Part shown: positions 32,545 to 45,814 of the stretch, piece after piece | Numbering within the stretch: position 1 is the stretch's first letter | How the letters are laid out: each line of letters starts with the position of its first letter | Source of the DNA: Clostridiales bacterium | GTDB taxonomy: Bacteria > Bacillota > Clostridia > Oscillospirales > CAG-272 | Assembly: GCA_012841635.1 (NCBI GenBank) | Contig: DUUJ01000001.1 | Coordinates: 159-64,158, forward strand | Reading direction: 5' to 3' | Length of the DNA: 64,000 nucleotides | The notes under the pieces: model-generated | What the model saw: only the letters and a program-made list of their open reading frames with translations | What the model was told of the DNA's origin: nothing | Database searches by the model: none | Program-made: the position numbers and the translations under genes

Positions 32545-32558
32545 TTTTCATTCCTCCT

Positions 32559-33545
32559 TTAATCACGTCTCTGATAGAAGATGTATCCGGAAATCACTGC
32601 TGCAATCGCGGCGACTATCAGGATAACTATAAGGAAGTATATCCATGACATCGCGGAGCTTACCACGTTTCCTCCGGCCTGGTTATAAACATCACCGATG
32701 TATGTCATAACCCGGTTGGTTGAGCTTGTAAAGCTGTCGATGACGGTATAGACGGTGTTGACGAGAATCATCGGAGAGACCATCGGGAAGGTGATCTTCC
32801 AGAAGGTTTCCCAGGTGGTCGCGCCGTCTATCGCGCAGGATTCATAGATGGCGGGGTTGATAGACTGAAGACCGGCCAGGAATACAAGCATCTGAACGCC
32901 GGCGCGGTTGATTATGTTATAGATGTTGTTGATCATCTGTGTAACATATGAAACCATGCCGCCGCCGATTTTCATAGTCTGGAACAGCCAGCTGATATCG
33001 GTCATCGATACTATTTCGGTAACCGCGCTGTTTTCGGTTCCGGTTTCAATCGTTTCCGAGGTGTTTTCCATATACTCAAGCAGGGTGTTGCCTTCGTCGA
33101 TACGAGCGACAAGACCGGTGTTGAGTATGACCGGGATGAAGAATATGGCGCGGAACGCGGCGCGTCCGAACATATCCTGGTTCAGAAGAACCGCCATGAA
33201 CAGAGCGAAGATGACTATCGCCGGGATATCAAACAGCAGCTGCTGGACACCGGATGTCAATGTCTGCACAAAGCTCGGGTCAACGAAGAGAGCTTCCTGA
33301 TAGTTCTCCCAGCCTACGAAGGTGAGGCTGTAGCCTCCTCCCTGAAGGATGTTGATCTTGTTGAAGCTGTACTTAATAGAGTCGAGTACAATCGGAAAGT
33401 AAATTATTACAAGTCCGATTATAAACGGCATTACAAATACCCAGCCGGCCCGGGCTTTACGCGCTGCCAGCGAGGCGCCCCTTCTCTTCTTTTTCGGGGC
33501 AGCGGATACAGTTTTATTCATTGGTATATCGTGCTCCTTCCTCAT
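32559..33545 (-). CDS. sugar ABC transporter permease (LplB-like)
   Basis: ESCAIDGATTWETFWKITFPMVSP loop; basic N-terminal tail typical of LplB-type permeases. Confidence 0.85.
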   Translation of the reverse strand: MRKEHDIPMNKTVSAAPKKKRRGASLAARKARAGWVFVMPFIIGLVIIYFPIVLDSIKYSFNKINILQGGGYSLTFVGWENYQEALFVDPSFVQTLTSGVQQLLFDIPAIVIFALFMAVLLNQDMFGRAAFRAIFFIPVILNTGLVARIDEGNTLLEYMENTSETIETGTENSAVTEIVSMTDISWLFQTMKIGGGMVSYVTQMINNIYNIINRAGVQMLVFLAGLQSINPAIYESCAIDGATTWETFWKITFPMVSPMILVNTVYTVIDSFTSSTNRVMTYIGDVYNQAGGNVVSSAMSWIYFLIVILIVAAIAAVISGYIFYQRRD

Positions 33546-36500
33546 CCTACTCGAATGAACTGCAGAGCTTCGATGGTCTGACCTTCAACCGTAACATTGA
33601 AGCTGTTGAAGTTGAGGTAGAAGACAACACCGTTGGAATAGCTGACTTTTGCAACAGTTCCGAGAGCGGTTGTATACTTGGTCTTCTCGTATTCTTTGGG
33701 AGCGTCTGCTTCTTCGGCTGCGGCGTCTGCTTCTTCGGCGGCAGCATCGGCTTCGCCTTCGGCAGCGGCTGCGTCATCGGCAGCGGTTTCTTCGGCGGCG
33801 GCTTCGGCAGCAGCAGCTTCAGCCTCAAGGTCAATGCCCAGCTCAGCAGCTTCCTCAGCGGCTTTACGTTCTTTAAGAGCAGCAGCTCTTGCGGCTTTCT
33901 CTTCCTTCTTGGCGAGAGCTTCGGCTTCTTCCTGAGCTAAGAGATCGGCTTCGGCCTTGTCGGCAGCGATTTCGTCGTCTGTCGGGATTCGCTCGGCATA
34001 AAGGAATTCGCAGCCTTCGAGTGTCGCACTCTGGCAATCCTTAAGAGCATCATTCAGTATGTTATAATATTTTATGAGGTCGTCGAACCAGATTTCATAA
34101 GATACGGAATAGTATCTCGAAAGGCGCCAGTCTTCTTTCAGCTTCTGGATATTCTGATAGCTCAGCAGGAAGTAAGGCGATGCGCCGCTCTGGATTATCT
34201 TCAGCATCTCATATCTTATATCACCGGCTTCGTTTGTCGGAGTTCCGGCATACTGAACATAACCGTGGAGGATCATGCCCATGAACGGCACCGGCTGGCT
34301 GGAGTAGTAATACAGCGAGCTGTCAAGCGACATATTAAGGATGTGGTCGGCATATTTCAGAGCATAAGCGTTGCCGCAGTCGATCATGAGAGAACCGTAA
34401 TCGGCTTTGATTTTGTCAAAGAGGTCTATGGTAAACTCTCTTGCGTCTTCGCGGTTGTAGGGATCTTTCTTGTCGAAGTCGGAGTTCAGGTCGGAGCCGA
34501 GCGTCGAGACTGAGATACCCATATGATTCAATTTGCCGAACGATTTGTTGAACTTCTCATAAAGTTTGGTGTATACCGAGGGAGATATGGCAACAAGCCA
34601 GGTTCTGCGGTAGGTCTGTTCAACGGAGTCATAGCGGCGTTTGGTGGTATAACGGTTATCGATGGTCTTGATGGCGTCGGTGCGGTGGCTGAAACCGTCT
34701 ATAAGACGTGTGCCGGAAACATAGGCCAAGTCAAAGTCGGGATAGACGGAAATCCCTTTGGATTTGGCATAGTCTATCAGTTCATTGAAGCCTCTGTTGC
34801 CGCCCGCTTTTCTTTCAAACTTAACACGGGTCGGAATGGTGAATTGCATACCGCCGTTGTAGTATCCGGTGAGACGATAGATGACGTTCTTAATGCCGGA
34901 AGCGGCAAGTTCGTCGGTCATCGTCTGGATATCCTCGAAAGTGGTCAGCGGGGTCTTAACCATAACCGGAATCGAAAGAATCGTTGTCTTTGTATCGATA
35001 ACGCCGAAAGTCTCAAGATACAGAGGAATATCACCGGAGGTTCTCGCGGAATCGAGCGGGACAAGGTCGCCCTTGTTTACGAGGTAATCGCGGTAGGCCT
35101 TGGCCATGCCTTCCCAGGAAACCGAGTAATAATCCTTGATGTTGTTTTCTTTCGCCTTGTTTTCGTCGGTCAGCATAATATACTTAATTCTGTAAGAACC
35201 GGTATATTTACGCTTGGAGACGACCGTCCAGGTTGCGTTCTGTCCGACCGAGATAGATTCAGCCAGGTTATAGCTGTCCTTCGGACGCGGATAGAACTGA
35301 GTATAAACGGTTGCGTATTTGTGGAGCGCGCCGCCGTGAGAGGTGGTGATATTCGCCATGGCGTCGCCCTCGGTGATGATTGCGAGGTAGCCGTGATCTT
35401 CATCCAGCGAAGCTTCGTTGTCGACTTCAACTTCTACTTCTTTGCCGGTATCATCAACGGACATCTCGGTGGTTTTGTACTTCACCGTTCCTCTGGCGTT
35501 TTCAACAACGCCGTATACGGGAAGTCTCATCGGCTGCTGATGCGCGCCGCTGATTTCGTGGTAGGCAAAGTCCTGACCGTAGATCTTACCGGAAATCGTA
35601 AGGTTCTTTCCGGCGAAATCTTCGAATCTGACAATCGAGCCGGAGCCGTCCGGAATGAAGGTGTAACCCTTATTCAGATACGAACCGCAGCCGATATACG
35701 GCAGGAACTGGATATAAGTGAGCGAATAGTGGGATTCGTCAAAACGAATTCCGTTAGCCGGGAGTCTGACCTCAAGTCCGTCGTCCTGGAGGCGGTATTC
35801 GAGCGCGAGCTTGAACATCGCAGGCGCGGTTCCGGAGGCGGTATATTCGGTCATCTGATGGTCATAGTCGAGCTCGGAGTAAGAATACTGGGTGCAGTAT
35901 GTCTTGACATAGGACTCGATGAGGTTGACTTCACGCTGTGAAGCGTAGGGGTCAAAGACGTAGACGGCCATCTTGTTGGTGATCGGGAAGGTAGCTTGAA
36001 GCTCCTTGATACCGCGGACCGTAAGTTTCGGGTCAGCCGGGTCTTTTAAGGTATAGAACGCGCTGATCTTCTTGAGAGCGGTTTCATCGGTAATTAAGGA
36101 AAGAATCTGTTCCTCGAAACGGGACTTTTCGATAAGTCTCGGAATGAGCGAACGGGTTTCTTCTTTACCTATGGTATATTCAACGCGGATACCGTTCTTT
36201 ATATTCTTAACATAAATCTGCTCTCTCTTTGCAGCTTCGATGTAAGAATAATAGTTCTTTTCCTGATCGTTGTCGGTAAACTTTATGATTACCTGCGAGA
36301 GCAGCTGAGACTTTGTATCATCCGAGCCGGTCGTCGTGGCTACATCATAGGGGTTTGTGAAGAGGATCTGGCCGCTCTTCTTATTCTTAAGGGCGACCTC
36401 TCCGGAATATTCTTCATAATAAAGCTCATAGTTATCGTTGCTCTGTTTGAGCACCATTGCTTCAAGCTTCTGTTCCGGAGTATTATACACCTGGGTATAA

Positions 36501-36652
36501 TAATCGATTATCTTCTTTTCTTCTTCCTCGCCCTTCTTAGCCGGAGCAGCGTAAACCGGAAGTATTCCGACAGAGCTTAATACTCCGACAACGGAAATCA
36601 CGGAAAGGAAGACTGATACCAATTTTATGAATTTGTTTTTCATATCGGTCAT
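33542..36652 (-). CDS. 1036-aa secreted protein of unknown function (possibly DUF5696-type, hydrolase-like), Ala/Glu-rich insert near the C-terminus
   Basis: N-terminal signal/anchor (KLVSVFLSVISVVGVLSSVGILPVYA). Long uninterrupted ORF whose start overlaps the upstream gene's stop region. The family assignment is from memory of similar operons, not from a search. Confidence 0.7.
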   Translation of the reverse strand: MTDMKNKFIKLVSVFLSVISVVGVLSSVGILPVYAAPAKKGEEEEKKIIDYYTQVYNTPEQKLEAMVLKQSNDNYELYYEEYSGEVALKNKKSGQILFTNPYDVATTTGSDDTKSQLLSQVIIKFTDNDQEKNYYSYIEAAKREQIYVKNIKNGIRVEYTIGKEETRSLIPRLIEKSRFEEQILSLITDETALKKISAFYTLKDPADPKLTVRGIKELQATFPITNKMAVYVFDPYASQREVNLIESYVKTYCTQYSYSELDYDHQMTEYTASGTAPAMFKLALEYRLQDDGLEVRLPANGIRFDESHYSLTYIQFLPYIGCGSYLNKGYTFIPDGSGSIVRFEDFAGKNLTISGKIYGQDFAYHEISGAHQQPMRLPVYGVVENARGTVKYKTTEMSVDDTGKEVEVEVDNEASLDEDHGYLAIITEGDAMANITTSHGGALHKYATVYTQFYPRPKDSYNLAESISVGQNATWTVVSKRKYTGSYRIKYIMLTDENKAKENNIKDYYSVSWEGMAKAYRDYLVNKGDLVPLDSARTSGDIPLYLETFGVIDTKTTILSIPVMVKTPLTTFEDIQTMTDELAASGIKNVIYRLTGYYNGGMQFTIPTRVKFERKAGGNRGFNELIDYAKSKGISVYPDFDLAYVSGTRLIDGFSHRTDAIKTIDNRYTTKRRYDSVEQTYRRTWLVAISPSVYTKLYEKFNKSFGKLNHMGISVSTLGSDLNSDFDKKDPYNREDAREFTIDLFDKIKADYGSLMIDCGNAYALKYADHILNMSLDSSLYYYSSQPVPFMGMILHGYVQYAGTPTNEAGDIRYEMLKIIQSGASPYFLLSYQNIQKLKEDWRLSRYYSVSYEIWFDDLIKYYNILNDALKDCQSATLEGCEFLYAERIPTDDEIAADKAEADLLAQEEAEALAKKEEKAARAAALKERKAAEEAAELGIDLEAEAAAAEAAAEETAADDAAAAEGEADAAAEEADAAAEEADAPKEYEKTKYTTALGTVAKVSYSNGVVFYLNFNSFNVTVEGQTIEALQFIRVG

Positions 36653-36676
36653 AATTTTTCTCCTGTTTCTTTCCGT

Positions 36677-38851
36677 TTACAACCGGTACGATATTTCGGT
36701 CACTATCGCGCCTATAAACGAGACTATCTTGGTGATAAGTCCGGTAAAGAGCAGGATAATGAACATTATAAATGCCATGCCGATTATTGTTCCGACTGAG
36801 GTGAGTATGTTTTTGCCGAGTGTGTAGTCATGCGTGGTCATCATTCCGGTGAAGATCAGTATAGCCATCCATACATAAGCAAAGGTGGTAAGCAGGGTGA
36901 CTACGTTGCCTTCGGCGAGGGTAACCATGTGGGTCGCGATGACTGACGGTATAATAAGCAGCGGAAGCGGGATAACCGAATAGCAGGTCGCTATGAAGAT
37001 ATCCTTGAAGCTTCCTTCGCCGTCGAATAGCGTTGTAAGACACCAGTTCGCGGTAACCCAGAGCAGCAGCGGAACCAGAAGACCCGTCGTCTGAATGAAG
37101 ATGGAGGCATATCCGCCGTGCGGGTTGAAAAGGTAGGACTTACCGATCGCCTGATAGGTGAAGGTAAGAATCGTAACAGCAAGCCAGAAGAAAGCTGCGC
37201 GAACCGAGCCGCGGCGCTCATGCTTGAGGTCCCAGAACCCGTCGAACGGATGGAAGATCACATGGAATCCATAGAGAACTTCCTGCCAGAAAGTGCGTCT
37301 TTCGGTGGAGACGGCGACTCTTCTGTTTACCCTTCCAGCGAATTTGAAGAACTGGCTTATAAGTATTGCGCCTATGACAACAAGAATCGGTATGAGCCAA
37401 ATTATCTTGGAGACAACGTCTTTACGCCACATCTTGAAAGCTGCGGAGTAATTTTCGGTCTCGTATGCGAATTTGTAATACTTCATCGCGCCTTCCCAGT
37501 CGCCGGCGCGATAAAGCGCCTTTCCGATGCCGACGTAAGCGGCGTCGAAATTGGAGTTGCGCTGGAGTATGGCCTGCCAGTCATCTACTGCCTTGTCATA
37601 CTTACGGTCGTTGTTGTTGCGAAGCGCGTTGATGAGGATATCGCCGTATTCGGTGCGGTTATAGACAGTGAAGCTGTCGCGGGTCTTGTCGAGGAGCAGG
37701 AGTTTGTCACCCTGATAAGCGACCGCTTCGATGGAGCTGATGTTGCCCAGCTGCATTCCGGTGTCGCCGAAGGTGAAGAGCATCTTGCCGTCGCCGTCAT
37801 AGGTGTAAACGCGGCTGCGCTTCTCGTCGATAATGGACCAGGTATTTTCCGGACCTATCGCAACGTCGATAATCTTTGACGCGCCTGTGGGAGTGTTGGT
37901 ATCGTATGCAATGCCGCGAACGCTGACTTCGCCGTTCGGAGCAAAGAAGCCGTTGCGGTGCATGATGTCGGCGCCCGAGCTGTTGAGCTTCTTTACCGGG
38001 GCGTAGTCGCCGGACTTGGACCGGATGGCACTCTGCTGCTGCCATTCCTCGATAGAGGAAGTGGTAACATAGATGAAGCCCTTATGGTCGATTGTGATAT
38101 TGTTAAACTCGGTGGATACGTTTTGAACCGAGAGAGCTCTCTGCTCTTCGGTCTGGAACTGTCTCCAGATTATCTGCCACCAGGAAGCGGTTACTTTCTG
38201 CGCGCCGATAAATCCGACGAAGGATCCGTCTGCGTTCAGCGAAATAACGCCCATGTAGGTGGTAGAGGAAATGACATATATACGGCCGGTCGAGTCGACG
38301 GCGCAGGCGACGGGCTTATAGATGCTGTTCGCCGGCATGACGTCGGATTTCGGCTCATGGATGATGCGCTTGAATTCGCCTTCAAGGTCGAAAACAACGA
38401 GACGGTTGTTTTCGGTATCGCAGACGAAGATCTCGTCGGTGGTGACATAGACGCCGGAGGGAGTGTTGAGGCTGTCCGGAACGCCCTGGTCGTTATTGAA
38501 TTCCTTTATGGCGAATTTATACTTGTAATATTCGTTAAGGACGACTATCCGGCTGTTGGCGCCGTCCGCGATGTAAACGTTCTTGTTCTGGTCGACGAAA
38601 AGATCGCGGGGGTCGTCAATCGGAGGGGCTATGCCCTTGCCTGTCGTCTTATCAATCTCAAGATCGGTGACGCCCATATAGACGGAGTCTATTTCAATTT
38701 CGGGGGTATATGCGTCCGGGGAAGCCATATCAAAACCGTCAACCGAGTAGGTATAGGTAAGATAGGATGCCGAACCGAACATCGAGATTGAACCCAACAG
38801 CATTACGGCGCAGAGGGCAGTCGCCGTGAAAATTGTGAATTTTCTTTTCAT
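36677..38851 (-). CDS. NHL-repeat beta-propeller / TPR / Yip1-domain membrane fusion protein
   Basis: Signal peptide. NHL-like blades (VYIADGANSRIVVLN, IFVCDTENNRLVVFD, GRIYVISS). TPR-like AYVGIGKALYRAGDWEGAMKYYKFAYE. C-terminal 5-TM Yip1-like region beginning YGFHVIFHPFDGFWDLKHERRGS. Confidence 0.7.
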   Translation of the reverse strand: MKRKFTIFTATALCAVMLLGSISMFGSASYLTYTYSVDGFDMASPDAYTPEIEIDSVYMGVTDLEIDKTTGKGIAPPIDDPRDLFVDQNKNVYIADGANSRIVVLNEYYKYKFAIKEFNNDQGVPDSLNTPSGVYVTTDEIFVCDTENNRLVVFDLEGEFKRIIHEPKSDVMPANSIYKPVACAVDSTGRIYVISSTTYMGVISLNADGSFVGFIGAQKVTASWWQIIWRQFQTEEQRALSVQNVSTEFNNITIDHKGFIYVTTSSIEEWQQQSAIRSKSGDYAPVKKLNSSGADIMHRNGFFAPNGEVSVRGIAYDTNTPTGASKIIDVAIGPENTWSIIDEKRSRVYTYDGDGKMLFTFGDTGMQLGNISSIEAVAYQGDKLLLLDKTRDSFTVYNRTEYGDILINALRNNNDRKYDKAVDDWQAILQRNSNFDAAYVGIGKALYRAGDWEGAMKYYKFAYETENYSAAFKMWRKDVVSKIIWLIPILVVIGAILISQFFKFAGRVNRRVAVSTERRTFWQEVLYGFHVIFHPFDGFWDLKHERRGSVRAAFFWLAVTILTFTYQAIGKSYLFNPHGGYASIFIQTTGLLVPLLLWVTANWCLTTLFDGEGSFKDIFIATCYSVIPLPLLIIPSVIATHMVTLAEGNVVTLLTTFAYVWMAILIFTGMMTTHDYTLGKNILTSVGTIIGMAFIMFIILLFTGLITKIVSFIGAIVTEISYRL

Positions 38852-38864
38852 ATGTAACCCTCCC

Positions 38865-39737
38865 TCAGTCTTTCAGGCCGGAGGTCGACATAGTTTCGAT
38901 GATGTTCGACTGAGTGATAACGAAAACCGTTATCGGAACGATCATCATCAGCACCGTCGAAGCAGCGGACGCGCCCGCACGGGCAACGCCTCCCGAAATG
39001 ATCTGGCTGATTGCATAGTTGAAGGTCTTGAGCTGCTCGGAGTAGATATAGATGGAGGCTCCCGAGTTCCAGAGTCCCTGGAAGGAATACACTATAAGCG
39101 TAAGCCAGGCCGGCTTAACCATAGGCATTGCAATATTCAGGAAGGTATAGAATTCGGAGGCTCCGTCGAGTCTTGCCGATTCAAGCACCGAGTCGGATAC
39201 AGAGCTGTCCATAAACTGCTTCATCAGGAAGAGACCCAGGGTCGAGCAGAAAGCCGGGACTATAACCGCAAGATAGGTGTCTATCCAGCCTAAAAGGGTC
39301 ATGGTGATGAAGTTGGTTATGGCGGAGACGGTGGTGTTGAACATCAAGGATTTGATGATCATTTCGAACATCCAGCCGCGGCCCGGGAAATCAATCTTCG
39401 AGAGCGCGTAGGCGCACATGGACGAGAGTATCAGATTTCCGAGGGTTCCGAACACCGAGATAAGAACGGTGTTGAATATGTAGCGGGAGAACGGCACCCA
39501 CGAGTCACTCATTAGAGTGAACAGGTCGGAGAAGTTCTGAAGCGTCGGACGAACGACATAAAAGCGCGGAGGGTACACGAAGAGCTCGTCGAAGGGCTTA
39601 AGCGACTGAAGTATGACATATAGCATCGGCAGGAACATGAACGCGCCCATAATTATCAGTATGGCGCTTATTCCTACGTCGCCTCCGACGGAGCGGTTCA
39701 GTACGACGCGATGTTTTCTTGTTCTTAATTTTGCCAT
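38865..39737 (-). CDS. carbohydrate ABC transporter permease
   Basis: ESARLDGASEFYTFLNIAMPMVKP EAA loop. Confidence 0.85.
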   Translation of the reverse strand: MAKLRTRKHRVVLNRSVGGDVGISAILIIMGAFMFLPMLYVILQSLKPFDELFVYPPRFYVVRPTLQNFSDLFTLMSDSWVPFSRYIFNTVLISVFGTLGNLILSSMCAYALSKIDFPGRGWMFEMIIKSLMFNTTVSAITNFITMTLLGWIDTYLAVIVPAFCSTLGLFLMKQFMDSSVSDSVLESARLDGASEFYTFLNIAMPMVKPAWLTLIVYSFQGLWNSGASIYIYSEQLKTFNYAISQIISGGVARAGASAASTVLMMIVPITVFVITQSNIIETMSTSGLKD

Positions 39738-39738
39738 C

Positions 39739-40734
39739 TTACTGACCTACCTTCGAAAGCAGCTTGTTAACCAACAGGTTTGCGCCGATCATTATAAGGA
39801 AGAGCAGCGTTGCGATTGCCGAGGCGTAACCGACCTCGAAACGCTGTCCGCCGTAGTCCTCAAGATGGTGCATGATGGTCCACGCGCTGTAGTTTACGGA
39901 CGGGAAGCCGGCAAGCGCGGTAACAATACCGCCGAAGCCGAACGAACCGGTGATTGACATAACGGCGCCGAAGAGAAGCTGCGGCTTCATCGACGGCAGG
40001 GTAATGAACCAGAGCTCCTGCCAGCGGTTGCGGACACCGTCGACAGCTCCCGCTTCATACAGCGAGCGGTCAACCGTCTGCAGTCCGGCAATGAAGCTCA
40101 GGAACGCAGTTCCAAGTGAAGTCCATAACGCGACTACGATACACAGCGGCATTACGAATGTTTCGTTTCTGAAGAATTGTATCGGAGTCGATATAAGCCC
40201 AAGGTAGATAAGTATACCGTTTACATATCCGTATGCGTCGCCCGAGAACATCGTCGCCCAGATAAGGTAGACGGCTCCGGAAATTGACGGCGCGTAGAAT
40301 ATGAGGGTTACAAATGCCCTGACTTTTGGCGCAAGTTCGTTTATAAACCACGCCATCATGAAAGACATCAGGTAGGAAGTCGGTCCCGTTATAGCGGCGA
40401 AGATAAGCGTGTTCTTTACGGCTATAACGAAGATATCGTCGTCAAGGAAGAGTCTTACATAGTTGTCCATGAAGACGAAATTAGGCCATTCAAGCATGTT
40501 GAATGTGGTAAAACTGAGTAAAAGCGAAAGCACGACCGGGATTACCGTGAATATGAAGAACAGGATCATGAACGGCGCTATCAAAGCATATGCTACTTTG
40601 TTGCGCTTCATTTCCTTCCAGGTCCATGCCGCTCTGCTCATATCGCCGCGGTTAACAGCGTGTTTTACAGCAGTAGCCGCTCCGCCGGACTGTTCGGCGG
40701 CAACGGTGGTTTTTTCGGTGTTTTTATCCGGCAT
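39739..40734 (-). CDS. sugar ABC transporter permease
   Basis: EAGAVDGVRNRWQELWFITLPSMKP EAA loop; 6 TM segments. Confidence 0.85.
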   Translation of the reverse strand: MPDKNTEKTTVAAEQSGGAATAVKHAVNRGDMSRAAWTWKEMKRNKVAYALIAPFMILFFIFTVIPVVLSLLLSFTTFNMLEWPNFVFMDNYVRLFLDDDIFVIAVKNTLIFAAITGPTSYLMSFMMAWFINELAPKVRAFVTLIFYAPSISGAVYLIWATMFSGDAYGYVNGILIYLGLISTPIQFFRNETFVMPLCIVVALWTSLGTAFLSFIAGLQTVDRSLYEAGAVDGVRNRWQELWFITLPSMKPQLLFGAVMSITGSFGFGGIVTALAGFPSVNYSAWTIMHHLEDYGGQRFEVGYASAIATLLFLIMIGANLLVNKLLSKVGQ

Positions 40735-40755
40735 TAACGATCCTCTCCTTCTTTA

Positions 40756-43731
40756 TTATTCGGCATTGGCGTCGCTGTCAGCCAAGCTCGGATCGACGAT
40801 CTCGCCTTCAGCGTTCTCAACAAAGCTGGTCGAATAGGATATCTCGTAGTATTCAAGGCCAAACTCCTTGCGCTTACGGGAGATTTCTTTGTTGATTTCG
40901 GTTATGTTGTCAAGCATTGATTCAACGGGGTCGGCATTATTGTTATAAGCATCCATGAATGCGAAGTCAACATAACGCGCGATGATGTAGCCGCCCGGAT
41001 ATTCCGGAACCGCGGCAAGATGCTGCATCTGAGCCTGAAGCGCTTTATACTCGGATGCCGTCCACGGCAGCTCGGCAAGAGCCTCCATGTTGGCGGTGTT
41101 GTATTTTGCGGCGGGTCCCATGACGGCGACAAGCTCGTTTGCATACTGAGCCTGAGGCTTGGCGTCGGTAAACCAGCCGATAAGCTTCCAGGCGGATTCA
41201 AGGTTCTTCGCGCCTCTCGGCATGACTACCGCGGATACGCCGGCGGGTGAAATGTGACTTACCGTTCCGTCATCTCTTTCCCAACCGAGTACAGGCACCA
41301 TTTCCCAGAGATTGGCAAGCTCGGAAGCATATACTATAAGGGTGTTGTAGGTGGTGTAGTCGACGATTCCGAGCGGCATCTCACCGGTACGGAAACGTGT
41401 GGGGAAGTCATAGGATACCGGGAAGCGGTAAGCGGTAAAGAGGTCGCAGATGGTTGAGAAGGCAGTAAGCGCAAGGTTGGAGTCAAGGTTGATGCGCTTT
41501 CCGTCATCGGCGTAAAGCTCGCCGCCCATCTGATACAGGGTGAAGATAGTTCCGCCGAGGTTGGACGGGAATGCAATATCCATCTTGTTGTTCTGAAGGA
41601 TCGGCAGGATGTTGAACATATCCGACCATGTATTGGGAAGATTGATTTCAAGCTCCGCAAATACATCCATGCGATAGAACATCATGCTGAAGGAGAGCGT
41701 TGACGGGATACCGTAAGTGGTTCCGTAAAGGGTCAGCGGAATCATTGCGGCAGGGCTGAACCTTGCCGTGACCTCGTCGAAGCCCTCGTAATCATTAAGA
41801 GGAAGAACGGCGGAACGAATAGCATAGTTGATGGTATCCGCCGAACCCAGGAAGGTGACGTCGGGACCGACGCCTGCGAGGATTGACGGGAGCAGTGAGC
41901 CGCCGGCGACGAGCTTGAGCTCGACTGCGACGTTCGACTCGGGAGTGAACTCATAGTCAATGAGCTGACGCAGGATCTGAGCCTGGTCGCGGCCTGCGGT
42001 GTACCACATGGTTACCGCTTCGTCGGATTGAACTTCGGATGTTGCTCCGATGGTGTTATAATCGCTGTAGAAGGAAGCGGCAAAGGTTCTTAGCTCATAC
42101 CACACCGCCTGATACCATGTGGCTTTGGCGCGCGGGAGCTTGGAGCCTACCTGCTGTACCGTGATATAGTCGAGCTCAAGCGACTGCTTCTGAGCGGTAT
42201 AAATCCAGGTTCCCAAAGTACCTAAGTAAGATTTGAGGTTTCCGAGGTTCTTGGCTAACTCGTCCTCGTCTCCCGACATGCGCTCGACAAGGTTTGCGAT
42301 GGTATCGAGCGTCGCGACGTTCTGGCCGCGTCCTTTGTTGATTTCGGCAAGATTGTTGGCTATTTCCCTGATAACCTTCGCTTCGTCCGCCATCGCCATA
42401 ATGGTTTCGGGGATAAGACGTCCGAAGTTATAGTCGCGGTATGCGTCAGGCGATGCGCCCGTGATCATAAGGATCTTGAGGTAAGCTGCGTTGAGGGTGG
42501 CAAGGCTGTCGGAAATCCTCGAAAGGATGTCAGCCATTTCACCCAGGTTAACTTCGAACTCAATGGTATTTTCGCCGGCTTTGAGAAGGAATTCGAAACC
42601 TTCGTGATAGCCGTCGTTAAGCGCGCATGACTGCCATGCGTCGTTATAAAGGAAACGGAGATAACTGGCTTCCTTGAACGGAACTTCGCCGTTTATGCGT
42701 ACCTGGCGGGACACATACATACCGGTCAGGATCTCCTGACGGTAACGGACGGCGATATTGTAAAGACCATCTTCGGGAACGGTCACAGTGTAACGGATCC
42801 ACTGTCCGACGGTTTCCCATTTGTCCGATCCGATGGTGTTCAGCTTTATGCGGCTGGCATCCTGCGGTTCGGTTATCGGCGAGCTGCGGTCATATATCGG
42901 ATATATAACCTGCTCTGAAGTATTGGTCGGGTTCTCTGCATTAATCTTGATCGGCTCCGCAAGAGTAACCTGCTTATATCCGGCGGCTTGGGCGGCTGCC
43001 AGATATTCTTCGTAAGTAGGCAGATTCACGACCGGAATGAAGCTTATCTTGCCTATTCCGACAGGTTCGCGGACAGCTTCAAGAGTAATCGTATGTTCGC
43101 CTTTTGTAAGATAGAATTCAAACGGTTCGACGATGAATCCGGTTGAATCGCAGGCGATATAGGTGCGCCATTCCGGAGTTTCGGCTTTGGTTGTGCGGAG
43201 ATCGTTTCCGGTGATATCGGTGCCAAAGACTCCGAATTCGCCCGGATATCGGTCGGCCCATACTTTGGTCATCTTAAGCGAACGGGCTTCATCAAACGGA
43301 ACTTTGCCGTCGATATAAAGCGAGCGCTCGATTGATGTTGCTTTGCCTTCGACGGGATAATACTCGATCTTGAAACAGTATTTTCCGTCGGACGGAACCG
43401 AGATCTTCCACGAAACCTTATCGGTTTCCGGAATGTAAAGGGCGGTGCGCCCTTCGAAGTTTTCGGTTTTTACTGCTGCGGTGGTATTTTCGGAATCGTA
43501 AGCCGTTCCGTCTACTTCACCGGCTGACGCTGCGTACGGATCATCCGCATGTTTTGCCTGATATTCGTTGTAGGAATCTGTGCCAAGCAGTTCCTTAACT
43601 TCTTCCAGGCTGCGCGAGAATGACGTCGTATCTGTTTCACCCGCCGCGTTTGACACGACCGGGAGAACACCGAGCAGCATAACCGCAACCAAGGAGAACG
43701 CGAGCATCCGTTTTGCTCTGGTTTTGTTCAT
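40756..43731 (-). CDS. giant (~990 aa) extracellular solute-binding protein with two N-terminal CBM-like beta-sandwich modules
   Basis: Start moved to MNKTRAKRMLAFSLVAVMLLGVLPVVSNA (GGAGG RBS at 43741-43745). Two internally repeated modules (SWKISVPSDGKYCFKIEYYP...FEFYLTKGEHTITLEAV and WIRYTVTVPEDGLYNIAVRY...FEFLLKAGENTIEFEV). The C-terminal ~550 aa are SBP-like. Confidence 0.75.
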   Translation of the reverse strand: MNKTRAKRMLAFSLVAVMLLGVLPVVSNAAGETDTTSFSRSLEEVKELLGTDSYNEYQAKHADDPYAASAGEVDGTAYDSENTTAAVKTENFEGRTALYIPETDKVSWKISVPSDGKYCFKIEYYPVEGKATSIERSLYIDGKVPFDEARSLKMTKVWADRYPGEFGVFGTDITGNDLRTTKAETPEWRTYIACDSTGFIVEPFEFYLTKGEHTITLEAVREPVGIGKISFIPVVNLPTYEEYLAAAQAAGYKQVTLAEPIKINAENPTNTSEQVIYPIYDRSSPITEPQDASRIKLNTIGSDKWETVGQWIRYTVTVPEDGLYNIAVRYRQEILTGMYVSRQVRINGEVPFKEASYLRFLYNDAWQSCALNDGYHEGFEFLLKAGENTIEFEVNLGEMADILSRISDSLATLNAAYLKILMITGASPDAYRDYNFGRLIPETIMAMADEAKVIREIANNLAEINKGRGQNVATLDTIANLVERMSGDEDELAKNLGNLKSYLGTLGTWIYTAQKQSLELDYITVQQVGSKLPRAKATWYQAVWYELRTFAASFYSDYNTIGATSEVQSDEAVTMWYTAGRDQAQILRQLIDYEFTPESNVAVELKLVAGGSLLPSILAGVGPDVTFLGSADTINYAIRSAVLPLNDYEGFDEVTARFSPAAMIPLTLYGTTYGIPSTLSFSMMFYRMDVFAELEINLPNTWSDMFNILPILQNNKMDIAFPSNLGGTIFTLYQMGGELYADDGKRINLDSNLALTAFSTICDLFTAYRFPVSYDFPTRFRTGEMPLGIVDYTTYNTLIVYASELANLWEMVPVLGWERDDGTVSHISPAGVSAVVMPRGAKNLESAWKLIGWFTDAKPQAQYANELVAVMGPAAKYNTANMEALAELPWTASEYKALQAQMQHLAAVPEYPGGYIIARYVDFAFMDAYNNNADPVESMLDNITEINKEISRKRKEFGLEYYEISYSTSFVENAEGEIVDPSLADSDANAE

Positions 43732-43744
43732 GGACTTTTCCTCC

Positions 43745-44350
43745 TGAAAAGAATTGGGGATGCCGGGTAAACAAAGTACCGTTTCCCGTAGTCGGCACCG
43801 GCTGCGTCTCATGACGGCCGGGAGCCCGGCGGACGGGAATTCCGCCTCTCCGGAGTTATTCCGGCTTCAGGGCAAGTCGGGATACGCTTTACAGCGGGAT
43901 TCCGCGGCGATCCGTGCGGGTCGGCCCCGCACGACGCCGTAAGGTCAGTTACAGCGCGCTTCAAGGGACGTGCTTTCAGCCCTTCAAGCCCATATGCCGC
44001 ATCATAATGCGGCAAATATGTCCTACGCTGCATACATGGTATGCTGCCCATACAAAACACTTGGCGTCGCAGACCGGAGACTTGACTTTTCCGGTCCGGG
44101 CAGCCAACCGTGTATGCGGCGTACCGTGCGCCGGCAGGATTTCCCTTCGGTAATTTGCCCTGTTGCTAAGTTCCACGGGTCATCCCCTCGGAACACCCGC
44201 AAAATCCGGTACTGCTGCTCTTAATGCAGCGGCGGCGGATTCACGGATGCGGAAATAACAGGCAAGGAACACAGCCCCGCTTCGGCCTGCCCGATCGTTT
44301 GCCGGGTAAGGAAGCCGGGTGCGTCCCGTTGATGATTATTCCCGCTTATT
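43745..44350 (-). ncRNA. candidate large structured RNA / ornate 5' leader of the giant-SBP operon (unclassified)
   Basis: ~600 nt, GC-rich, with no credible ORF in six frames. At least 14 hairpins or helices are readable by eye (listed in the findings). It lies between a minus-strand promoter at 44359-44387 and the operon RBS. Strand is assigned from context and is not certain. Confidence 0.45.
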
Positions 44351-44358
44351 ACTTAATA

Positions 44359-44387
44359 TGATATCATAGCCTGAGCCGGATGTCAAT
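44359..44387 (-). promoter_or_regulatory. sigma70-like promoter reading toward the structured leader and SBP operon
   Basis: On the minus strand: TTGACA (44387-44382), 17 nt, TATCAT (44364-44359). Confidence 0.5.
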
Positions 44388-44810
44388 AGTAAAAATATTC
44401 GTATCGGAAGGAATTTTTATGCAAATCGCGTTGTTTTTGGCCGTTTTTCACATAAAATGCGGTTTTTTCGGATACCGGCGGCAGTTTTTTACAAAATTTC
44501 TACATTATATATAAAGCTGATAAAACGCTCTTTCTTCGGCGCCGGCCGGGGATAAAAACATTGTTTTTCTTATCCGCGGCAAACCCGGGATACGGTTTTT
44601 ACCTTATTTTCCGCGATTTGCCGGGTATTTTTATTCACGCAGCCGGATAAATTATGCCTTTTGGGACGAATACCCCAAAGGGGATGATTGTTGTTTTATC
44701 CCGATATGTTCAATGGCGGAACATTGCATTAATTTTGCACAAACTTTGCGTTGTATTTTGAATTGCCAATATATAATGTTATTTCTAATGAGTTTTAACA
44801 TAGAAATCGA

Positions 44811-44842
44811 CAAAAACGGCTGACCTTAATTTAAGGTCAGCC
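44811..44842 (-). terminator. intrinsic terminator of the ABC-2/GldG/DUF4340 operon
   Basis: GGCTGACCTTAA-ATT-AAGGTCAGCC hairpin followed on the minus strand by GTTTTTG. Confidence 0.8.
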
Positions 44843-44857
44843 GGGGCTATATTTCTA

Positions 44858-45814
44858 TCAATATTCAACACCCAAAACAGAGAGAACCGTTTTTGCGGCT
44901 TCCGCATCCGCCGAGTAGACAAGGCCGCTGCCGCAGGTGAAATATCCGCTGCCGTCGACGACTCCGACGGTAAATGAGGCGGTTTTGTCGACATGGACAG
45001 TCGAAGTGTAGCTTGATGTCTGTCCCGAGTTGTCGGCGTTTTCCACCGTCTGCGCTTCTTTGCAGGCGATATCGACGGTGGCTCCGCGGTCGAAGCCGTA
45101 AGCCGTCATCGAGGCTTCTGCGGTGCTGCCGGGGCTGATATAGCCGACTGTGGCAAGTCCTCCGCGGACAATATCCGAAAACGCGGTTACGAGTTCTGCG
45201 GTTTTTTCGCTGTCAATCAATTCCGCCGCGAATGTCATCTCAATCGAGTTATATTTATCTTCGTCGAGCACCGGGGGGATATCGACATCCGCCAGATCGA
45301 GCAGCGAGTATTCGAAGAACGGATTCAGCCCGGTCGGTATTATATACACCTTGTCGGTGCCGCCGATGTTGAAGTAGTAGCCGTCAAGCATCTTGTTGTA
45401 GTCGCCGATCTTGTAATTTCTCTCGGCGTCTTCAAATACCGCGGTGATGTCGAGATAGGGGGAAGCGAGACCGTATTCGGCGAAATTCTCTTTCGTTTCC
45501 TCGACCAGCCGGTTGGCTTTTATCTTGCTTATCGCCGACGCCATCGAGGCGGGGAGCTCGAATTTTACCGGGAAGGAAGGATCTTCGGTATACTGCCATT
45601 TATAGAGAATGTCGTCGAATCTGAGAGCTATCATTTCGCCGTTCAGCGTGTATTTTATCTCTTTTATTTTTGACGGGTCGTCGTCGGCTATCATCATGTC
45701 TCCCGCGGGAGCCGGGGGCGGCGCTTCGGTTTTTGTGAGAGCTCTGACGAGGAAATACCCGCCTATCAGCGCCGCCATTACAACGGCGGCGATTATCAGA
45801 TTTTTAATTCGCAT
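44858..45814 (-). CDS. DUF4340-like protein (N-terminal anchor), last gene of the GldG-type operon
   Basis: Single N-terminal TM segment (LIIAAVVMAALIGGYFLV). Position after a GldG-like gene matches the conserved ABC/ABC-2/GldG/DUF4340 operon. Confidence 0.6.
   Translation of the reverse strand: MRIKNLIIAAVVMAALIGGYFLVRALTKTEAPPPAPAGDMMIADDDPSKIKEIKYTLNGEMIALRFDDILYKWQYTEDPSFPVKFELPASMASAISKIKANRLVEETKENFAEYGLASPYLDITAVFEDAERNYKIGDYNKMLDGYYFNIGGTDKVYIIPTGLNPFFEYSLLDLADVDIPPVLDEDKYNSIEMTFAAELIDSEKTAELVTAFSDIVRGGLATVGYISPGSTAEASMTAYGFDRGATVDIACKEAQTVENADNSGQTSSYTSTVHVDKTASFTVGVVDGSGYFTCGSGLVYSADAEAAKTVLSVLGVEY

What the first reader, a model, noticed from the sequence alone, without database searches (positions are those of the whole stretch)
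43745..44350. ~600-nt ORF-free, GC-rich, hairpin-dense element between a promoter and the giant-SBP operon: candidate large structured RNA
Seen in the sequence: the 1.1-kb gap upstream of the operon has two parts. One is AT-rich (44.39-44.86 kb). The other is a GC-rich ~600-nt block (43.75-44.35 kb) with coding-like composition, but all six frames hold only short Arg/Pro-rich ORFs with no protein-like character. A minus-strand TTGACA-17-TATCAT promoter (44387-44359) sits immediately upstream of the block, and the operon RBS sits immediately downstream.

Helices I could read by eye (plus-strand coordinates):
- 43766-43788: GGGUAAAC / GUUUCCC
- 43818-43831
- 43829-43847: GGCGGA / UCCGCC
- 43851-43865
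- 43879-43905: CGGGAU...CGCU-UUAC-AGCG...AUUCCG
- 43914-43934: 8 bp
- 43964-43985
- 43997-44014: 7 bp
- 44031-44045: 6 bp
- 44074-44096: 6 bp
- 44171-44195
- 44198-44253: composite 18-bp hairpin, CCGCA / AAUCCG / CUGCUGC paired with GCAGCGG / CGGAUU / UGCGG
- 44262-44304
- 44317-44329
- a long-range pairing, 43933-43944 with 44061-44070, which encloses five of these hairpins

The 9-mer TGCCGGGTA occurs near both ends of the block (43762, 44301) and again at 44620.

Strand clues conflict. The promoter context and a GUAA (GNRA) tetraloop at 43890-43893 favour the minus strand. Two G-U pairs that would become A-C mismatches favour the plus strand.

Inference: size and helix density are in the range of the ornate large RNAs (OLE, ROOL, GOLLD, raiA classes), but I recognise no signature of those, nor of RNase P, tmRNA, SRP RNA or common riboswitches. 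A 600-nt structured leader on a sugar-uptake operon would itself be unusual.
Basis: partly seen in the sequence, partly recalled or inferred. Interest (0 to 1): 0.8.

Follow-up and report, generated by a model that had tools for sequence, protein, structure and literature searches.

The report
Large structured leader of sugar-uptake operon
The 620 bases between a strong promoter and a sugar-uptake operon are a real, hairpin-packed, non-coding mRNA leader whose helices are kept by selection, but it occurs only in three closely related uncultured Clostridia and looks like a fast-evolving leader, not a new ancient "ornate" RNA.

Summary
Window 43732-44352 (minus strand) is ORF-free and GC-rich, up to 66% against 50% for the window. 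It folds far better than shuffles (z -6.5). It lies between a near-consensus extended -10 promoter (44386-44358) and the AGGAGG/ATG of the 991-aa binding-protein gene.

Nothing known matches. Rfam gave no hit. No Pfam family reached significance, and six-frame ORFs found nothing among 5.8 billion protein clusters. Phage and plasmid records gave no match.

Full-length homologues exist in only two other lineages, both anaerobic-digester MAGs with 93-94% identical binding proteins. All three fold independently into the same architecture. Paired columns are 84% invariant and unpaired columns 62%, which is near the neutral 60.5%. Indels fall in loops, and double changes in helices keep pairing 16:2. 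The variable tips stay hairpins although their sequences differ.

Orthologous operons in about 70 other Clostridia have the same promoter type. Their leaders are 85-680 nt, mostly structured and unrelated in sequence.

Best reading: a lineage-specific, cis-acting structured 5' leader that acts on mRNA stability or read-through and on ribosome access. Its function is untested. It is not a member of OLE, ROOL, GOLLD or raiA.

The parts
44358..44386 (-). Sigma-A type promoter: TTGACA, 17-nt spacer, TG-n-TATCAT (extended -10). The predicted transcript start is about 44352-44350.
   Evidence: 11 of 12 matches with TG, and the only promoter-like site in 43400-45000. The -35 hexamer, the spacer except one base and the TG are identical in L003 and L004; the -10 hexamer is TATTAT in L003. 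The same promoter type is found in 69 of 75 loci of the operon family.
43732..44352 (-). The whole leader, about 620 nt, from the predicted transcript start to the base before the ATG.
   Evidence: MFE -290 kcal/mol, z -6.5. Homologous leaders in L003 and L004 give z -7.9 and -7.0 with the same domain layout. No Rfam hit. No protein hit.
44249..44345 (-). 5' domain P1, a long irregular hairpin that starts about 8 nt after the predicted 5' end. The base (GCGGGAAUAAUC / GUUAUUUCCGC) is invariant and the tip (44325-44268) is variable.
   Evidence: helices 2 and 3; segment V1 folds as a hairpin in all three lineages although the sequences differ.
44195..44240 (-). Variable hairpin V2. Its length is 50, 33 and 41 nt in the three lineages.
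   Evidence: helix 4.
44170..44194 (-). Conserved hairpin A: GUUCCGAGGGGAUGACCCGUGGAAC. It is invariant apart from the single mismatched position (A in the window and L004, G in L003).
   Evidence: helix 5; 9 pairs that never vary. Invariant runs of 12 and 19 nt.
43868..44162 (-). Large multi-branched domain closed by CAGGGCA / UGCCCUG.
   Evidence: helices 6 and 7. The same closure appears in the independent folds of L003 and L004.
43952..44133 (-). Core three-way junction. It comprises the closing helix CGGCGC/GCGCUG, a long helix of 22 pairs (44123-44024) with a conserved C-A mismatch, the hairpin at 44020-43991 and the hairpin at 43983-43964. It holds the 37-nt and 53-nt invariant runs.
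   Evidence: Model R1 scores 184-216 bits in the three lineages and finds the core nowhere else in about 1 Mb of related loci. The helix ACGCCGCAUACAC...UGUAUGCAGCGU is the only part shared with L005.
43906..43938 (-). Variable hairpin V5. It is a 17-bp perfect stem in L003. In L004 it is replaced by a longer hairpin module with a U-tract.
43764..43864 (-). Four 3' hairpins in a row: 43864-43850, 43847-43827, 43826-43794 and 43788-43764.
   Evidence: helices 18-22. Helix 21 has two pairs with changes on both sides. L004 carries an extra hairpin-sized insertion after the first of the four (segment V6).
43685..43776 (-). The last leader hairpin, CAUCCCC, the ribosome-binding site AGGAGG (43745-43740), the ATG (43731-43729) and the first 15 codons. 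This is one 92-nt stretch identical in all three lineages.
   Evidence: the longest invariant run in the 12-kb alignment; the first three bases of the ribosome-binding site have a predicted unpaired probability of only 0.1-0.4 in all three lineages.
40756..43731 (-). Gene for the 991-aa extracellular solute-binding protein. It is the first gene of the operon, which continues with 2 permeases, a Yip1/NHL protein, a DUF5696 protein, 2 permeases, a VanZ-like protein and an alpha-galactosidase (Pfam Melibiase_2).
44817..44843 (-). Intrinsic terminator of the upstream ABC-2 transporter operon. It marks the far end of the intergenic region.
   Evidence: 12-bp stem followed by TTTTTG.

Best explanation
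The block is the 5' untranslated leader, about 620 nt, of the giant-binding-protein glycan-uptake operon. It is transcribed on the minus strand from the strong promoter at 44386-44358.

It folds into a compact chain of helical domains: a 5' long hairpin, two hairpins, a large multi-branched domain with a three-way-junction core, and four 3' hairpins. The last of these abuts the ribosome-binding site.

Selection acts mainly on the helices, not on loop or junction nucleotides. I therefore think it works in cis as a structural leader, in two ways:
1. It keeps a long untranslated 5' region compact. That would shield the mRNA from 5'-end-dependent decay and from Rho loading, and so set the level and lifetime of the operon transcript.
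2. Its invariant 3' module, together with the first codons, holds the ribosome-binding site in a partly paired state that tunes or gates translation initiation.

The invariant three-way-junction core may be a docking site for a lineage-specific factor.

Shown here: non-coding; structured; helices under purifying and compensatory selection; promoter and operon context; no known family.

Inferred only: that it is transcribed, and every functional step.
For: Context:
- Promoter with 11 of 12 matches plus TG, directly upstream, retained in L003 and L004 with one change in the -10 hexamer and one in the spacer of L003.
- AGGAGG and the ATG lie directly downstream.
- No strong intrinsic terminator in the window's leader. 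The scan flags only a 6-bp hairpin with two G-U pairs inside P1, and 5 terminator-like sites against 2.4 expected for the whole region.

Structure:
- z = -6.5, -7.9 and -7.0 in the three lineages, with the same domain order in independent folds.
- 97.1% of cells paired.
- 10 pairs with changes on both sides, against 6.1 +/- 1.5 in shuffles (2 of 500 reach it) and 0-4 when partners are slid.
- All seven variable segments refold as hairpins at the same place.

Selection:
- Neutral benchmark: 60.5% of four-fold sites in the binding-protein gene are identical in all three lineages.
- Paired columns are 84% invariant and unpaired columns 62%. Of 109 gap columns, 94 are unpaired.
- Changed pairs keep pairing in 57.6% of cases against 28.7% expected. 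Double changes are 16 kept to 2 broken.
- Invariant runs of 53, 48 and 37 nt.
- The 92-nt invariant run across the translation start is the longest in 12 kb.
- The ribosome-binding site is predicted to be mostly paired.

Strand: minus.

Family habit: 69 of 75 orthologous loci have the same promoter type 85-680 nt upstream of the ATG. Of 16 leaders sampled, 10 have z <= -3.1 and 12 have z <= -2.

Not coding and not mobile.
Against: - There are no transcript data, so the 5' end, read-through and processing are all inferred.
- Only three effective lineages exist. Covariation is modest, and the structure was derived from the same sequences, which biases the pair counts.
- A purely structural role does not explain why both strands of a 22-pair helix, and runs of 37-53 nt, are invariant while neutral sites have diverged by about 40%. 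That hints at sequence-specific recognition.
- Runs of 50-89 invariant nt also occur in the coding sequence, so these runs are not unique.
- The hairpin nearest the 5' end starts about 8-10 nt from the predicted start. That is further than in the classical 5' stabilisers I know of (my knowledge).
- The predicted pairing of the ribosome-binding site is weak and rests on thermodynamic prediction alone.
Confidence: 0.6

Rival explanations
1. A sensing regulatory RNA, like a riboswitch or a protein-dependent switch. The invariant three-way-junction core binds a glycan-derived ligand or a dedicated RNA-binding regulator. Binding changes the pairing around CAUCCCC and AGGAGG, or read-through, and so switches the operon on.
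For: - No regulator gene lies in or next to the operon.
- The core is as conserved as the best-conserved coding sequence, and a C-A mismatch is kept in four lineages.
- The invariant GGGGAUG in hairpin A is perfectly complementary to CAUCCCC just upstream of the ribosome-binding site. That would give a three-element switch.
- Other sub-families of the operon have leaders with a hairpin plus U-tract (L018, L021, L069), or with paired CCUCC/GGAGGC elements.
Against: - No aptamer-like core is shared with the orthologous operons, although their binding proteins are homologous.
- Unpaired nucleotides as a whole evolve at the neutral rate.
- Complementary 7-mers among the invariant blocks are expected by chance (about 6 by my estimate).
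- No conserved strong terminator.
- No over-represented repeated motif.
- A 10-fold enriched TGTGCA motif upstream of the promoters points to control at the DNA level.
Confidence: 0.2
2. An independent non-coding RNA gene: a trans-acting RNA, or an ornate large RNA in the sense of OLE, ROOL or GOLLD, that merely lies upstream of the operon.
For: The size (about 600 nt), the multi-domain fold and the lack of any ORF fall in the range of those RNAs.
Against: - No terminator lies between the block and the ribosome-binding site in the window or in L003.
- The conserved sequence runs without a break into the translation start.
- No Rfam match, even at E <= 10.
- Only three lineages carry it, always at the same locus.
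- Leaders at the orthologous position in other taxa vary from 85 to 680 nt.
Confidence: 0.07
3. A DNA-level element: a set of operator or roadblock sites, or an inserted repeat of the REP or MITE type, and not an RNA structure.
For: - Long invariant blocks.
- The 9-mer TGCCGGGTA occurs three times, only in this gap.
Against: - G-U pairs are strongly asymmetric between the strands.
- Compensatory changes and hairpin-for-hairpin replacement.
- No second copy in the window, in about 1 Mb of related loci, or in plasmid and phage records. The metagenome scan, made with the core-helix pattern only, found just the same locus in the L003 and L004 lineages.
- No cre-like site in the leader.
- Two of the three 9-mer copies are not conserved.
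Confidence: 0.05
4. A decayed protein gene, or an unannotated small protein gene.
For: Coding-like GC content, and stop-free stretches of up to 118 codons.
Against: - No Pfam family reaches significance; the best E-values are 0.04, far below the families' cut-offs.
- The concatenated six-frame ORFs (936 aa) have no hit at E <= 0.01 among 5.8 billion protein clusters.
- Of 34 gap runs in the three-lineage alignment, 29 are not multiples of three, and no frame is preserved between lineages.
Confidence: 0.02

Closest known systems
Long structured 5' leaders of polysaccharide-utilisation operons in Clostridia, and 5' stabiliser leaders of Firmicutes mRNAs (for example the cip-cel leader of Ruminiclostridium cellulolyticum and the aprE leader of Bacillus subtilis). 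These examples come from my own knowledge and were not checked in the paper library.
   Same: A cis-acting untranslated leader between a strong promoter and the first gene of a highly expressed extracellular or uptake operon. It is rich in stem-loops and free of terminators. Selection acts on the helices rather than on particular loop nucleotides.
   Different: There is no sequence relationship. It is much larger and more branched than the classical stabilisers, with about 170 predicted pairs in 23 helices. It contains an invariant three-way-junction core of about 180 nt. Its first hairpin starts about 8-10 nt from the predicted 5' end. No experimental data exist.
Ornate large bacterial RNAs: OLE, ROOL, GOLLD and raiA (Rfam families; cryo-EM structures in PMC12286853).
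   Same: Size range, absence of ORFs, many helices, and the fact that it stands out as a long GC-rich intergenic region.
   Different: No covariance-model match. It is contiguous with an mRNA start rather than a free-standing gene. It occurs in three close lineages only. Its loops and junctions are on average no more conserved than neutral sites. It is not conserved in the orthologous loci of related taxa.
Riboswitches and protein-dependent leader switches (T-box, RAT/antiterminator and ANTAR types).
   Same: Position in a 5' leader. It has a conserved core next to a conserved module at the ribosome-binding site. Alternative pairings are possible.
   Different: No match to any Rfam riboswitch or leader family. 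No conserved terminator/antiterminator pair. The core does not recur across taxa that share the homologous transporter.
The other leaders of the same operon family found here, for example the 325-674-nt leader family of loci L046 and L048-L054.
   Same: The same promoter type, the same place in front of the homologous binding-protein gene, mostly strong predicted structure, and growth and shrinkage by hairpin-sized insertions.
   Different: No sequence similarity beyond chance, and no match to the core model.

Membership tests
OLE / ROOL / GOLLD / raiA (Rfam covariance models) | A match of sequence and secondary structure to the family's covariance model at or near its gathering score. | tested here: not met
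   cmscan of 43400-45000 at E <= 10 returned none of these families; inside the block the only match was Termite-flg at 17.9 bits against a threshold of 40. No gathering-level hit anywhere in the 64-kb window.
OLE / ROOL / GOLLD / raiA (as a kind) | Wide phylogenetic distribution, with conserved junction and loop nucleotides and abundant covariation. | tested here: not met
   Only three close lineages carry it. Unpaired columns are 62% invariant against a neutral 60.5%. Only 10 pairs show changes on both sides.
Any Rfam riboswitch or cis-regulatory leader family | A covariance-model match. | tested here: not met
Riboswitch (generic) | An aptamer core conserved wherever the regulated gene family is conserved. 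| tested here: not met
   Core model R1 finds nothing in 80 loci of the binding-protein family outside the three lineages. Local similarity to 13 other leaders gives z = -1.1 to 2.0.
Riboswitch (generic) | An expression platform: mutually exclusive terminator/antiterminator pairing, or pairing that sequesters the ribosome-binding site. | tested here: inconclusive
   No conserved strong terminator. The ribosome-binding site is predicted to be partly paired. The GGGGAUG / CAUCCCC complementarity exists but is within chance expectation.
Riboswitch (generic) | Direct ligand binding. | not testable with these tools
   This needs in-line or SHAPE probing with candidate ligands.
Transcription attenuator with an intrinsic terminator | A stable GC-rich hairpin followed at once by a U-tract inside the leader, conserved among relatives. 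| tested here: not met
   The window has only a weak 6-bp hairpin with two G-U pairs, inside P1. A good candidate exists only in the L004 lineage, as an insertion, and is absent from the window and L003.
5' mRNA stabiliser leader (Firmicutes) | A stable stem-loop at, or within a few nucleotides of, the 5' end of the transcript. | tested here: inconclusive
   The base of P1 starts at 44345, about 8 nt after the predicted start, and is invariant. The start itself is only predicted from the -10 box.
5' mRNA stabiliser leader (Firmicutes) | A longer mRNA half-life that depends on the leader. | not testable with these tools
   This needs half-life measurements with and without the leader.
REP / MITE-type repeated palindromic elements | Many dispersed copies per genome. 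| tested here: not met
   One copy in the 64-kb window and one per related locus. The metagenome pattern scan found only the orthologous site. The complete genome was not available.
Protein-coding gene or pseudogene | A reading frame preserved between relatives, or similarity to known proteins. | tested here: not met

The most novel reading that the evidence does not exclude
The giant-binding-protein glycan-uptake operons of uncultured Clostridia may be controlled by a previously undescribed set of large, fast-evolving, multi-domain leader RNAs. On this reading the window's 620-nt version, through its invariant three-way-junction core, senses a carbohydrate-derived signal or a dedicated partner and gates translation through the GGGGAUG / CAUCCCC / AGGAGG elements. 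It would be a carbohydrate-responsive RNA switch of unusual size.
Probability: 0.12. Interest if true: 0.75.

Novelty: new variant of a known kind. Interest (0 to 1): 0.45.

Why it matters
If the reading is right, this is an unusually large structured 5' leader (about 620 nt and 23 helices), and one can watch it evolve. Helices are kept, loops drift at the neutral rate, and whole hairpins are gained and lost between species whose binding proteins are 93-94% identical.

With the roughly 70 related loci, it shows that one family of glycan-uptake operons in gut, rumen and digester Clostridia is always preceded by a near-consensus promoter and a leader that is usually structured. That points to post-transcriptional control as a regular part of how these uncultured polysaccharide degraders express their transporters.

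It also gives annotators a warning. Gene callers extend the binding-protein ORF into the leader: 1049 aa are called where 991 are real.

It would matter much more if the invariant core proved to bind a ligand or a protein. Nothing here shows that.

Tried and rejected
- **Rfam.** Searched at gathering threshold and at E <= 10, with no result.
- **Plasmids and phages.** blastn gave no match.
- **Pfam.** The seven longest ORFs gave nothing significant.
- **Protein collection.** One search with all six-frame ORFs of at least 30 aa joined into a single 936-aa query gave no hit.
- **More homologues.**
  - The genome scan with the binding-protein alignment returned 80 loci, but only L003 and L004 carry the leader.
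  - The metagenome scan with the two-part helix pattern returned three contigs, all identical to the L003 or L004 type.
  - Look-ups of proteins P0001 and P0003-P0006 gave the L004-type variant L001/L002, plus leaders of other types only.
  - No route to further members was left, so R-scape-grade covariation is out of reach.
- **Core model.** The covariance model of the three-way-junction core was run against about 1 Mb of related loci and found no remote member, not even the L005 helix.
- **Local alignment.** Comparison of the leader with 13 other leader types gave chance-level scores.
- **Repeated motifs.** A search for repeated protein-binding motifs found only a mild excess of CCGGA and CCGCA, and GGA 17 times against 11.6 expected. 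I rejected a sponge of the CsrB type.
- **cre sites.** None in the leader or promoter region.
- **Long-range complementarity among invariant blocks.** Several 7-8-nt matches exist, but their number is what chance would give. I list them as leads, not findings.
- **Consensus fold of the second leader family's 3' part.** Uninformative.
- **Literature.** Nothing on DUF5696, and nothing on such leaders.
Full report
**What is at the coordinates**

The giant solute-binding-protein gene runs from 43731 down to 40756 on the minus strand. It encodes 991 aa that start MNKTRAKR, with AGGAGG at 43745-43740. The ORF listed up to 43812 is only an open frame upstream of the real start. The upstream gene, for a DUF4340 protein, ends at 44858 and has a clean intrinsic terminator at 44843-44817. 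That leaves a 1126-nt gap.

The half of the gap next to the operon reaches 66% GC against 50% for the window, the highest of any intergenic stretch here. At its upstream edge lies the only promoter-like site of the region: TTGACA-17-TATCAT with a TG extension, at 44386-44358. A transcript starting at about 44352 would carry roughly 620 untranslated nucleotides.

**Is the hairpin density more than chance?**

Yes. The 620 nt fold at -290 kcal/mol against -234 +/- 9 for dinucleotide shuffles, so z = -6.5. The plus strand gives z = -6.2. In 300-nt windows the block reaches z = -6 to -8, while the flanking coding sequence mostly gives about 0 to -3. The exceptions are listed in the observation check.

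**Known families and coding potential**

- Rfam 15 gives nothing at gathering thresholds in the whole window. In the block it gives nothing but noise at E <= 10.
- Plasmid and phage records have no similar DNA.
- The longest ORFs match no Pfam family at a significant level; the best E-values are 0.04.
- All six-frame ORFs of at least 30 aa, joined into one query, found no protein at E <= 0.01 among 5.8 billion clusters.
- Between relatives no frame is kept.
- Of 34 gap runs in the three-lineage alignment, 29 are not multiples of three.

**Relatives**

A protein search shows a large family of about 1000-aa binding proteins in uncultured Clostridia. I collected about 90 loci.

Only two other lineages carry a leader homologous over its whole length:
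- L003, identical to L093. This is MAG Clostridiales AS10tlH2TH_327, with a 94% identical binding protein.
- L004, identical to L091 and L092 and nearly identical to L001 and L002. This is MAG AS21ysBPME_12, at 93%.

A metagenome scan for the core helix found only these same lineages.

The next relative, L005 (79%), has its own consensus promoter and a 422-nt GC-rich leader. That leader shares just one helix (ACGCCGCAUACAC...UGUAUGCAGCGU, including its C-A mismatch) and the region of the ribosome-binding site.

**Selection**

In the binding-protein gene, 60.5% of four-fold degenerate sites are identical in all three lineages. I use this as the neutral benchmark.

The leader is a mosaic. It has invariant runs of 53, 48, 37, 20 and 19 nt (three runs of 19). 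Between them lie stretches that are 10-40% invariant and full of indels.

Sorted by the consensus structure:
- Paired columns are 84% invariant and unpaired columns 62%, which is about neutral.
- Of 109 gap columns, 94 are unpaired.
- Between pairs of lineages, base pairs that changed stayed paired in 57.6% of cases. The expectation is 28.7% if stems mutated as the unpaired columns do.
- Changes on both sides are 16 kept to 2 broken.

On the four-row alignment:
- 97.1% of cells are paired.
- 10 pairs carry changes on both sides, against 6.1 +/- 1.5 in shuffles (2 of 500 reach it) and 0-4 when the partners are slid.

Each of seven variable segments folds into a hairpin at the same place in each lineage, although sequence and length differ. 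One example is 33, 18 and 39 nt at the tip of the long helix. Another is a 17-bp perfect stem in L003 where the window has a shorter one.

Independent single-sequence folds of L003 and L004 (z = -7.9 and -7.0) give the same domain order as the window.

Two caveats apply. There are only three effective lineages, and the structure was derived from these same sequences. Also, invariant runs of 50-89 nt occur in the permease genes, so the conserved blocks are comparable to well-conserved coding sequence and are not unique.

**Strand**

The promoter points to the minus strand. So does the consensus energy, -200.8 against -188.3 kcal/mol. So do the 65 G-U cells against 9 A-C cells in the minus-strand consensus.

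**Architecture (minus strand, 5' to 3')**

1. P1, a long hairpin at 44345-44249 with an invariant base and a variable tip.
2. Variable hairpin, 44240-44195.
3. Invariant hairpin A, 44194-44170.
4. Large multi-branched domain, 44162-43868. Its core (44133-43952) is a three-way junction holding a long helix of 22 pairs, two hairpins and the longest internal invariant runs.
5. Variable hairpin, 43938-43906.
6. Four 3' hairpins, 43864-43764.
7. CAUCCCC, the ribosome-binding site and the ATG.

The stretch 43776-43685 is identical in all three lineages. It covers the last hairpin, the ribosome-binding site and the first 15 codons, and it is the longest invariant run in the 12-kb alignment. The first three bases of the ribosome-binding site have a predicted unpaired probability of only 0.1-0.4.

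**The wider operon family**

In 69 of 75 loci a TTGAC[AT]-17-TGnTAnnAT promoter lies 85-680 nt upstream of the ATG; the median leader is 207 nt. Of 16 leaders sampled, 10 have z <= -3.1 and 12 have z <= -2.

The window's leader has no similarity beyond chance to 13 other leader types. The covariance model of its core finds nothing outside the three lineages.

A second leader family (L046, L048-L052 and L054; 325-674 nt) shows the same behaviour: a conserved core plus hairpin-sized insertions. Some sub-families carry a hairpin with a U-tract right after the 5' end.

So a strong promoter followed by a structured leader is the rule for this operon. The sequence and size of the leader turn over quickly.

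**Mechanism**

*What is shown.* The block is non-coding and structured. Its helices are under purifying and compensatory selection. It is contiguous with the translation start. The window's leader has no conserved strong terminator, no repeated motif and no cre-like site. No regulator gene lies in the operon.

*What I infer.* The leader acts in cis. Helices are what is conserved while loops drift, and unrelated structured leaders occupy the same place in related operons. The most economical reading is therefore a structural leader. It would keep a long untranslated 5' region compact, which gives resistance to 5'-end-dependent decay and to Rho. It would also set ribosome access through the invariant module at the translation start.

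I give about 0.6 to the combined statement. That splits into about 0.85 that it is a transcribed structured leader of the operon, and about 0.35-0.4 that stability and translation tuning is the main function.

*The main rival (0.2)* is a switch that binds a factor or a ligand and is centred on the invariant core. The strict sequence invariance of both strands of the 22-pair helix fits this better than a purely structural role does. Three observations count against it: the absence of a shared core across orthologous operons, the neutral loops, and a probable DNA-level control site upstream.

**Novelty**

The block belongs to no described RNA family. As a kind, a structured cis-acting mRNA leader, it is known. 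Its size, its branching and its visible mode of evolution are unusual. I rate it a new variant of a known kind, of moderate interest.

Noticed in passing
window 44736-44741; related loci, mostly 500-700 nt upstream of the binding-protein ATG: The hexamer TGTGCA/TGCACA is about 10 times more frequent in the 1 kb upstream of the binding-protein genes than inside them (2.29 against 0.22 per kb). It is present in 54 of 61 loci. The window's copy lies about 350 nt upstream of the -35 box. It may be a transcription-factor site of this operon family.
   Followed up: partly
L003-L087, upstream of the binding-protein gene: In 69 of 75 loci a near-consensus extended -10 promoter (TTGAC[AT]-17-TGnTAnnAT) lies 85-680 nt upstream of the ATG. 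Of 16 leaders sampled, 10 fold with z <= -3.1.
   Followed up: yes
L046, L048, L049, L050, L051, L052 and L054: the leader upstream of the binding-protein ATG (for example L051 4305-5000): This is a second, better-populated leader family: seven species, 325-674 nt. It has conserved blocks (AUAAAUACGGGGGGAGACC, CUCUCCCGGUACUUGGGACG, GUUUGCGCCUCC, GGAGGCAYGAA) and whole hairpins inserted or deleted. GCCUCC and GGAGGC could form a mimic of the ribosome-binding-site pairing. It is a better target for covariation analysis than the window's family.
   Followed up: partly
L018, L021 and L069 leaders, about 120-140 nt upstream of the ATG: These short leaders start with AAAUAYGGUGAC. A GC-rich hairpin and UUUUU follow directly, which looks like an attenuator.
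   Followed up: no
L016, L025, L026 and L033 leaders, the last ~90 nt before the ATG: There is a conserved motif next to the ribosome-binding site: ACCCGGAG..GAUUCGGCG.UUCCGGGU...CGCCGAAUC. It could form a pseudoknot, since the loop UUCGGCG pairs with the downstream CGCCGAA (read by eye).
   Followed up: no
window 43685-43776: The longest run identical in all three lineages across 12 kb (92 nt) covers the last leader hairpin, the ribosome-binding site and the first 15 codons, synonymous sites included. This suggests constraint on RNA structure or sequence at the translation start.
   Followed up: partly
window 43761-43769, 44300-44308 and 44619-44627: TGCCGGGTA occurs three times in the 64-kb window, all in this gap, against 0.22 expected. 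Two copies share 11 nt. Only the copy at 43761 is conserved in L003 and L004. Unexplained; it may be a recent local duplication.
   Followed up: partly
window 36073-36086 and 42528-42541, and 9 other places: Sites like the catabolite-responsive element (TGWAANCGNTNWCA, at most 1 mismatch) give 15 matches on the two strands, at 11 places, against 3.7 expected. Two places lie inside genes of this operon, and none lies in the leader or promoter region.
   Followed up: no
L004 4760-4790 (also L001, L002, L091 and L092): The L004 lineage has a lineage-specific insertion in variable hairpin V5. It is a tandem hairpin followed by CGGUUUUUU, which is terminator-like. It is absent from the window and from L003.
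   Followed up: partly
P0001 (1049 aa) against window 40756-43731 (991 aa): Public gene calls extend the binding-protein ORF by 58 codons into the GC-rich leader, because the frame happens to stay open. In the window the open frame reaches 43812. This is an annotation artefact.
   Followed up: yes
window 31462-43731: The operon combines the giant binding protein with two pairs of permease genes, a Yip1/NHL/TPR membrane protein, a 1036-aa DUF5696 protein, a VanZ-like protein and an alpha-galactosidase (Pfam Melibiase_2). No ATPase gene or regulator gene was seen among them. The paper library holds nothing on DUF5696.
   Followed up: no
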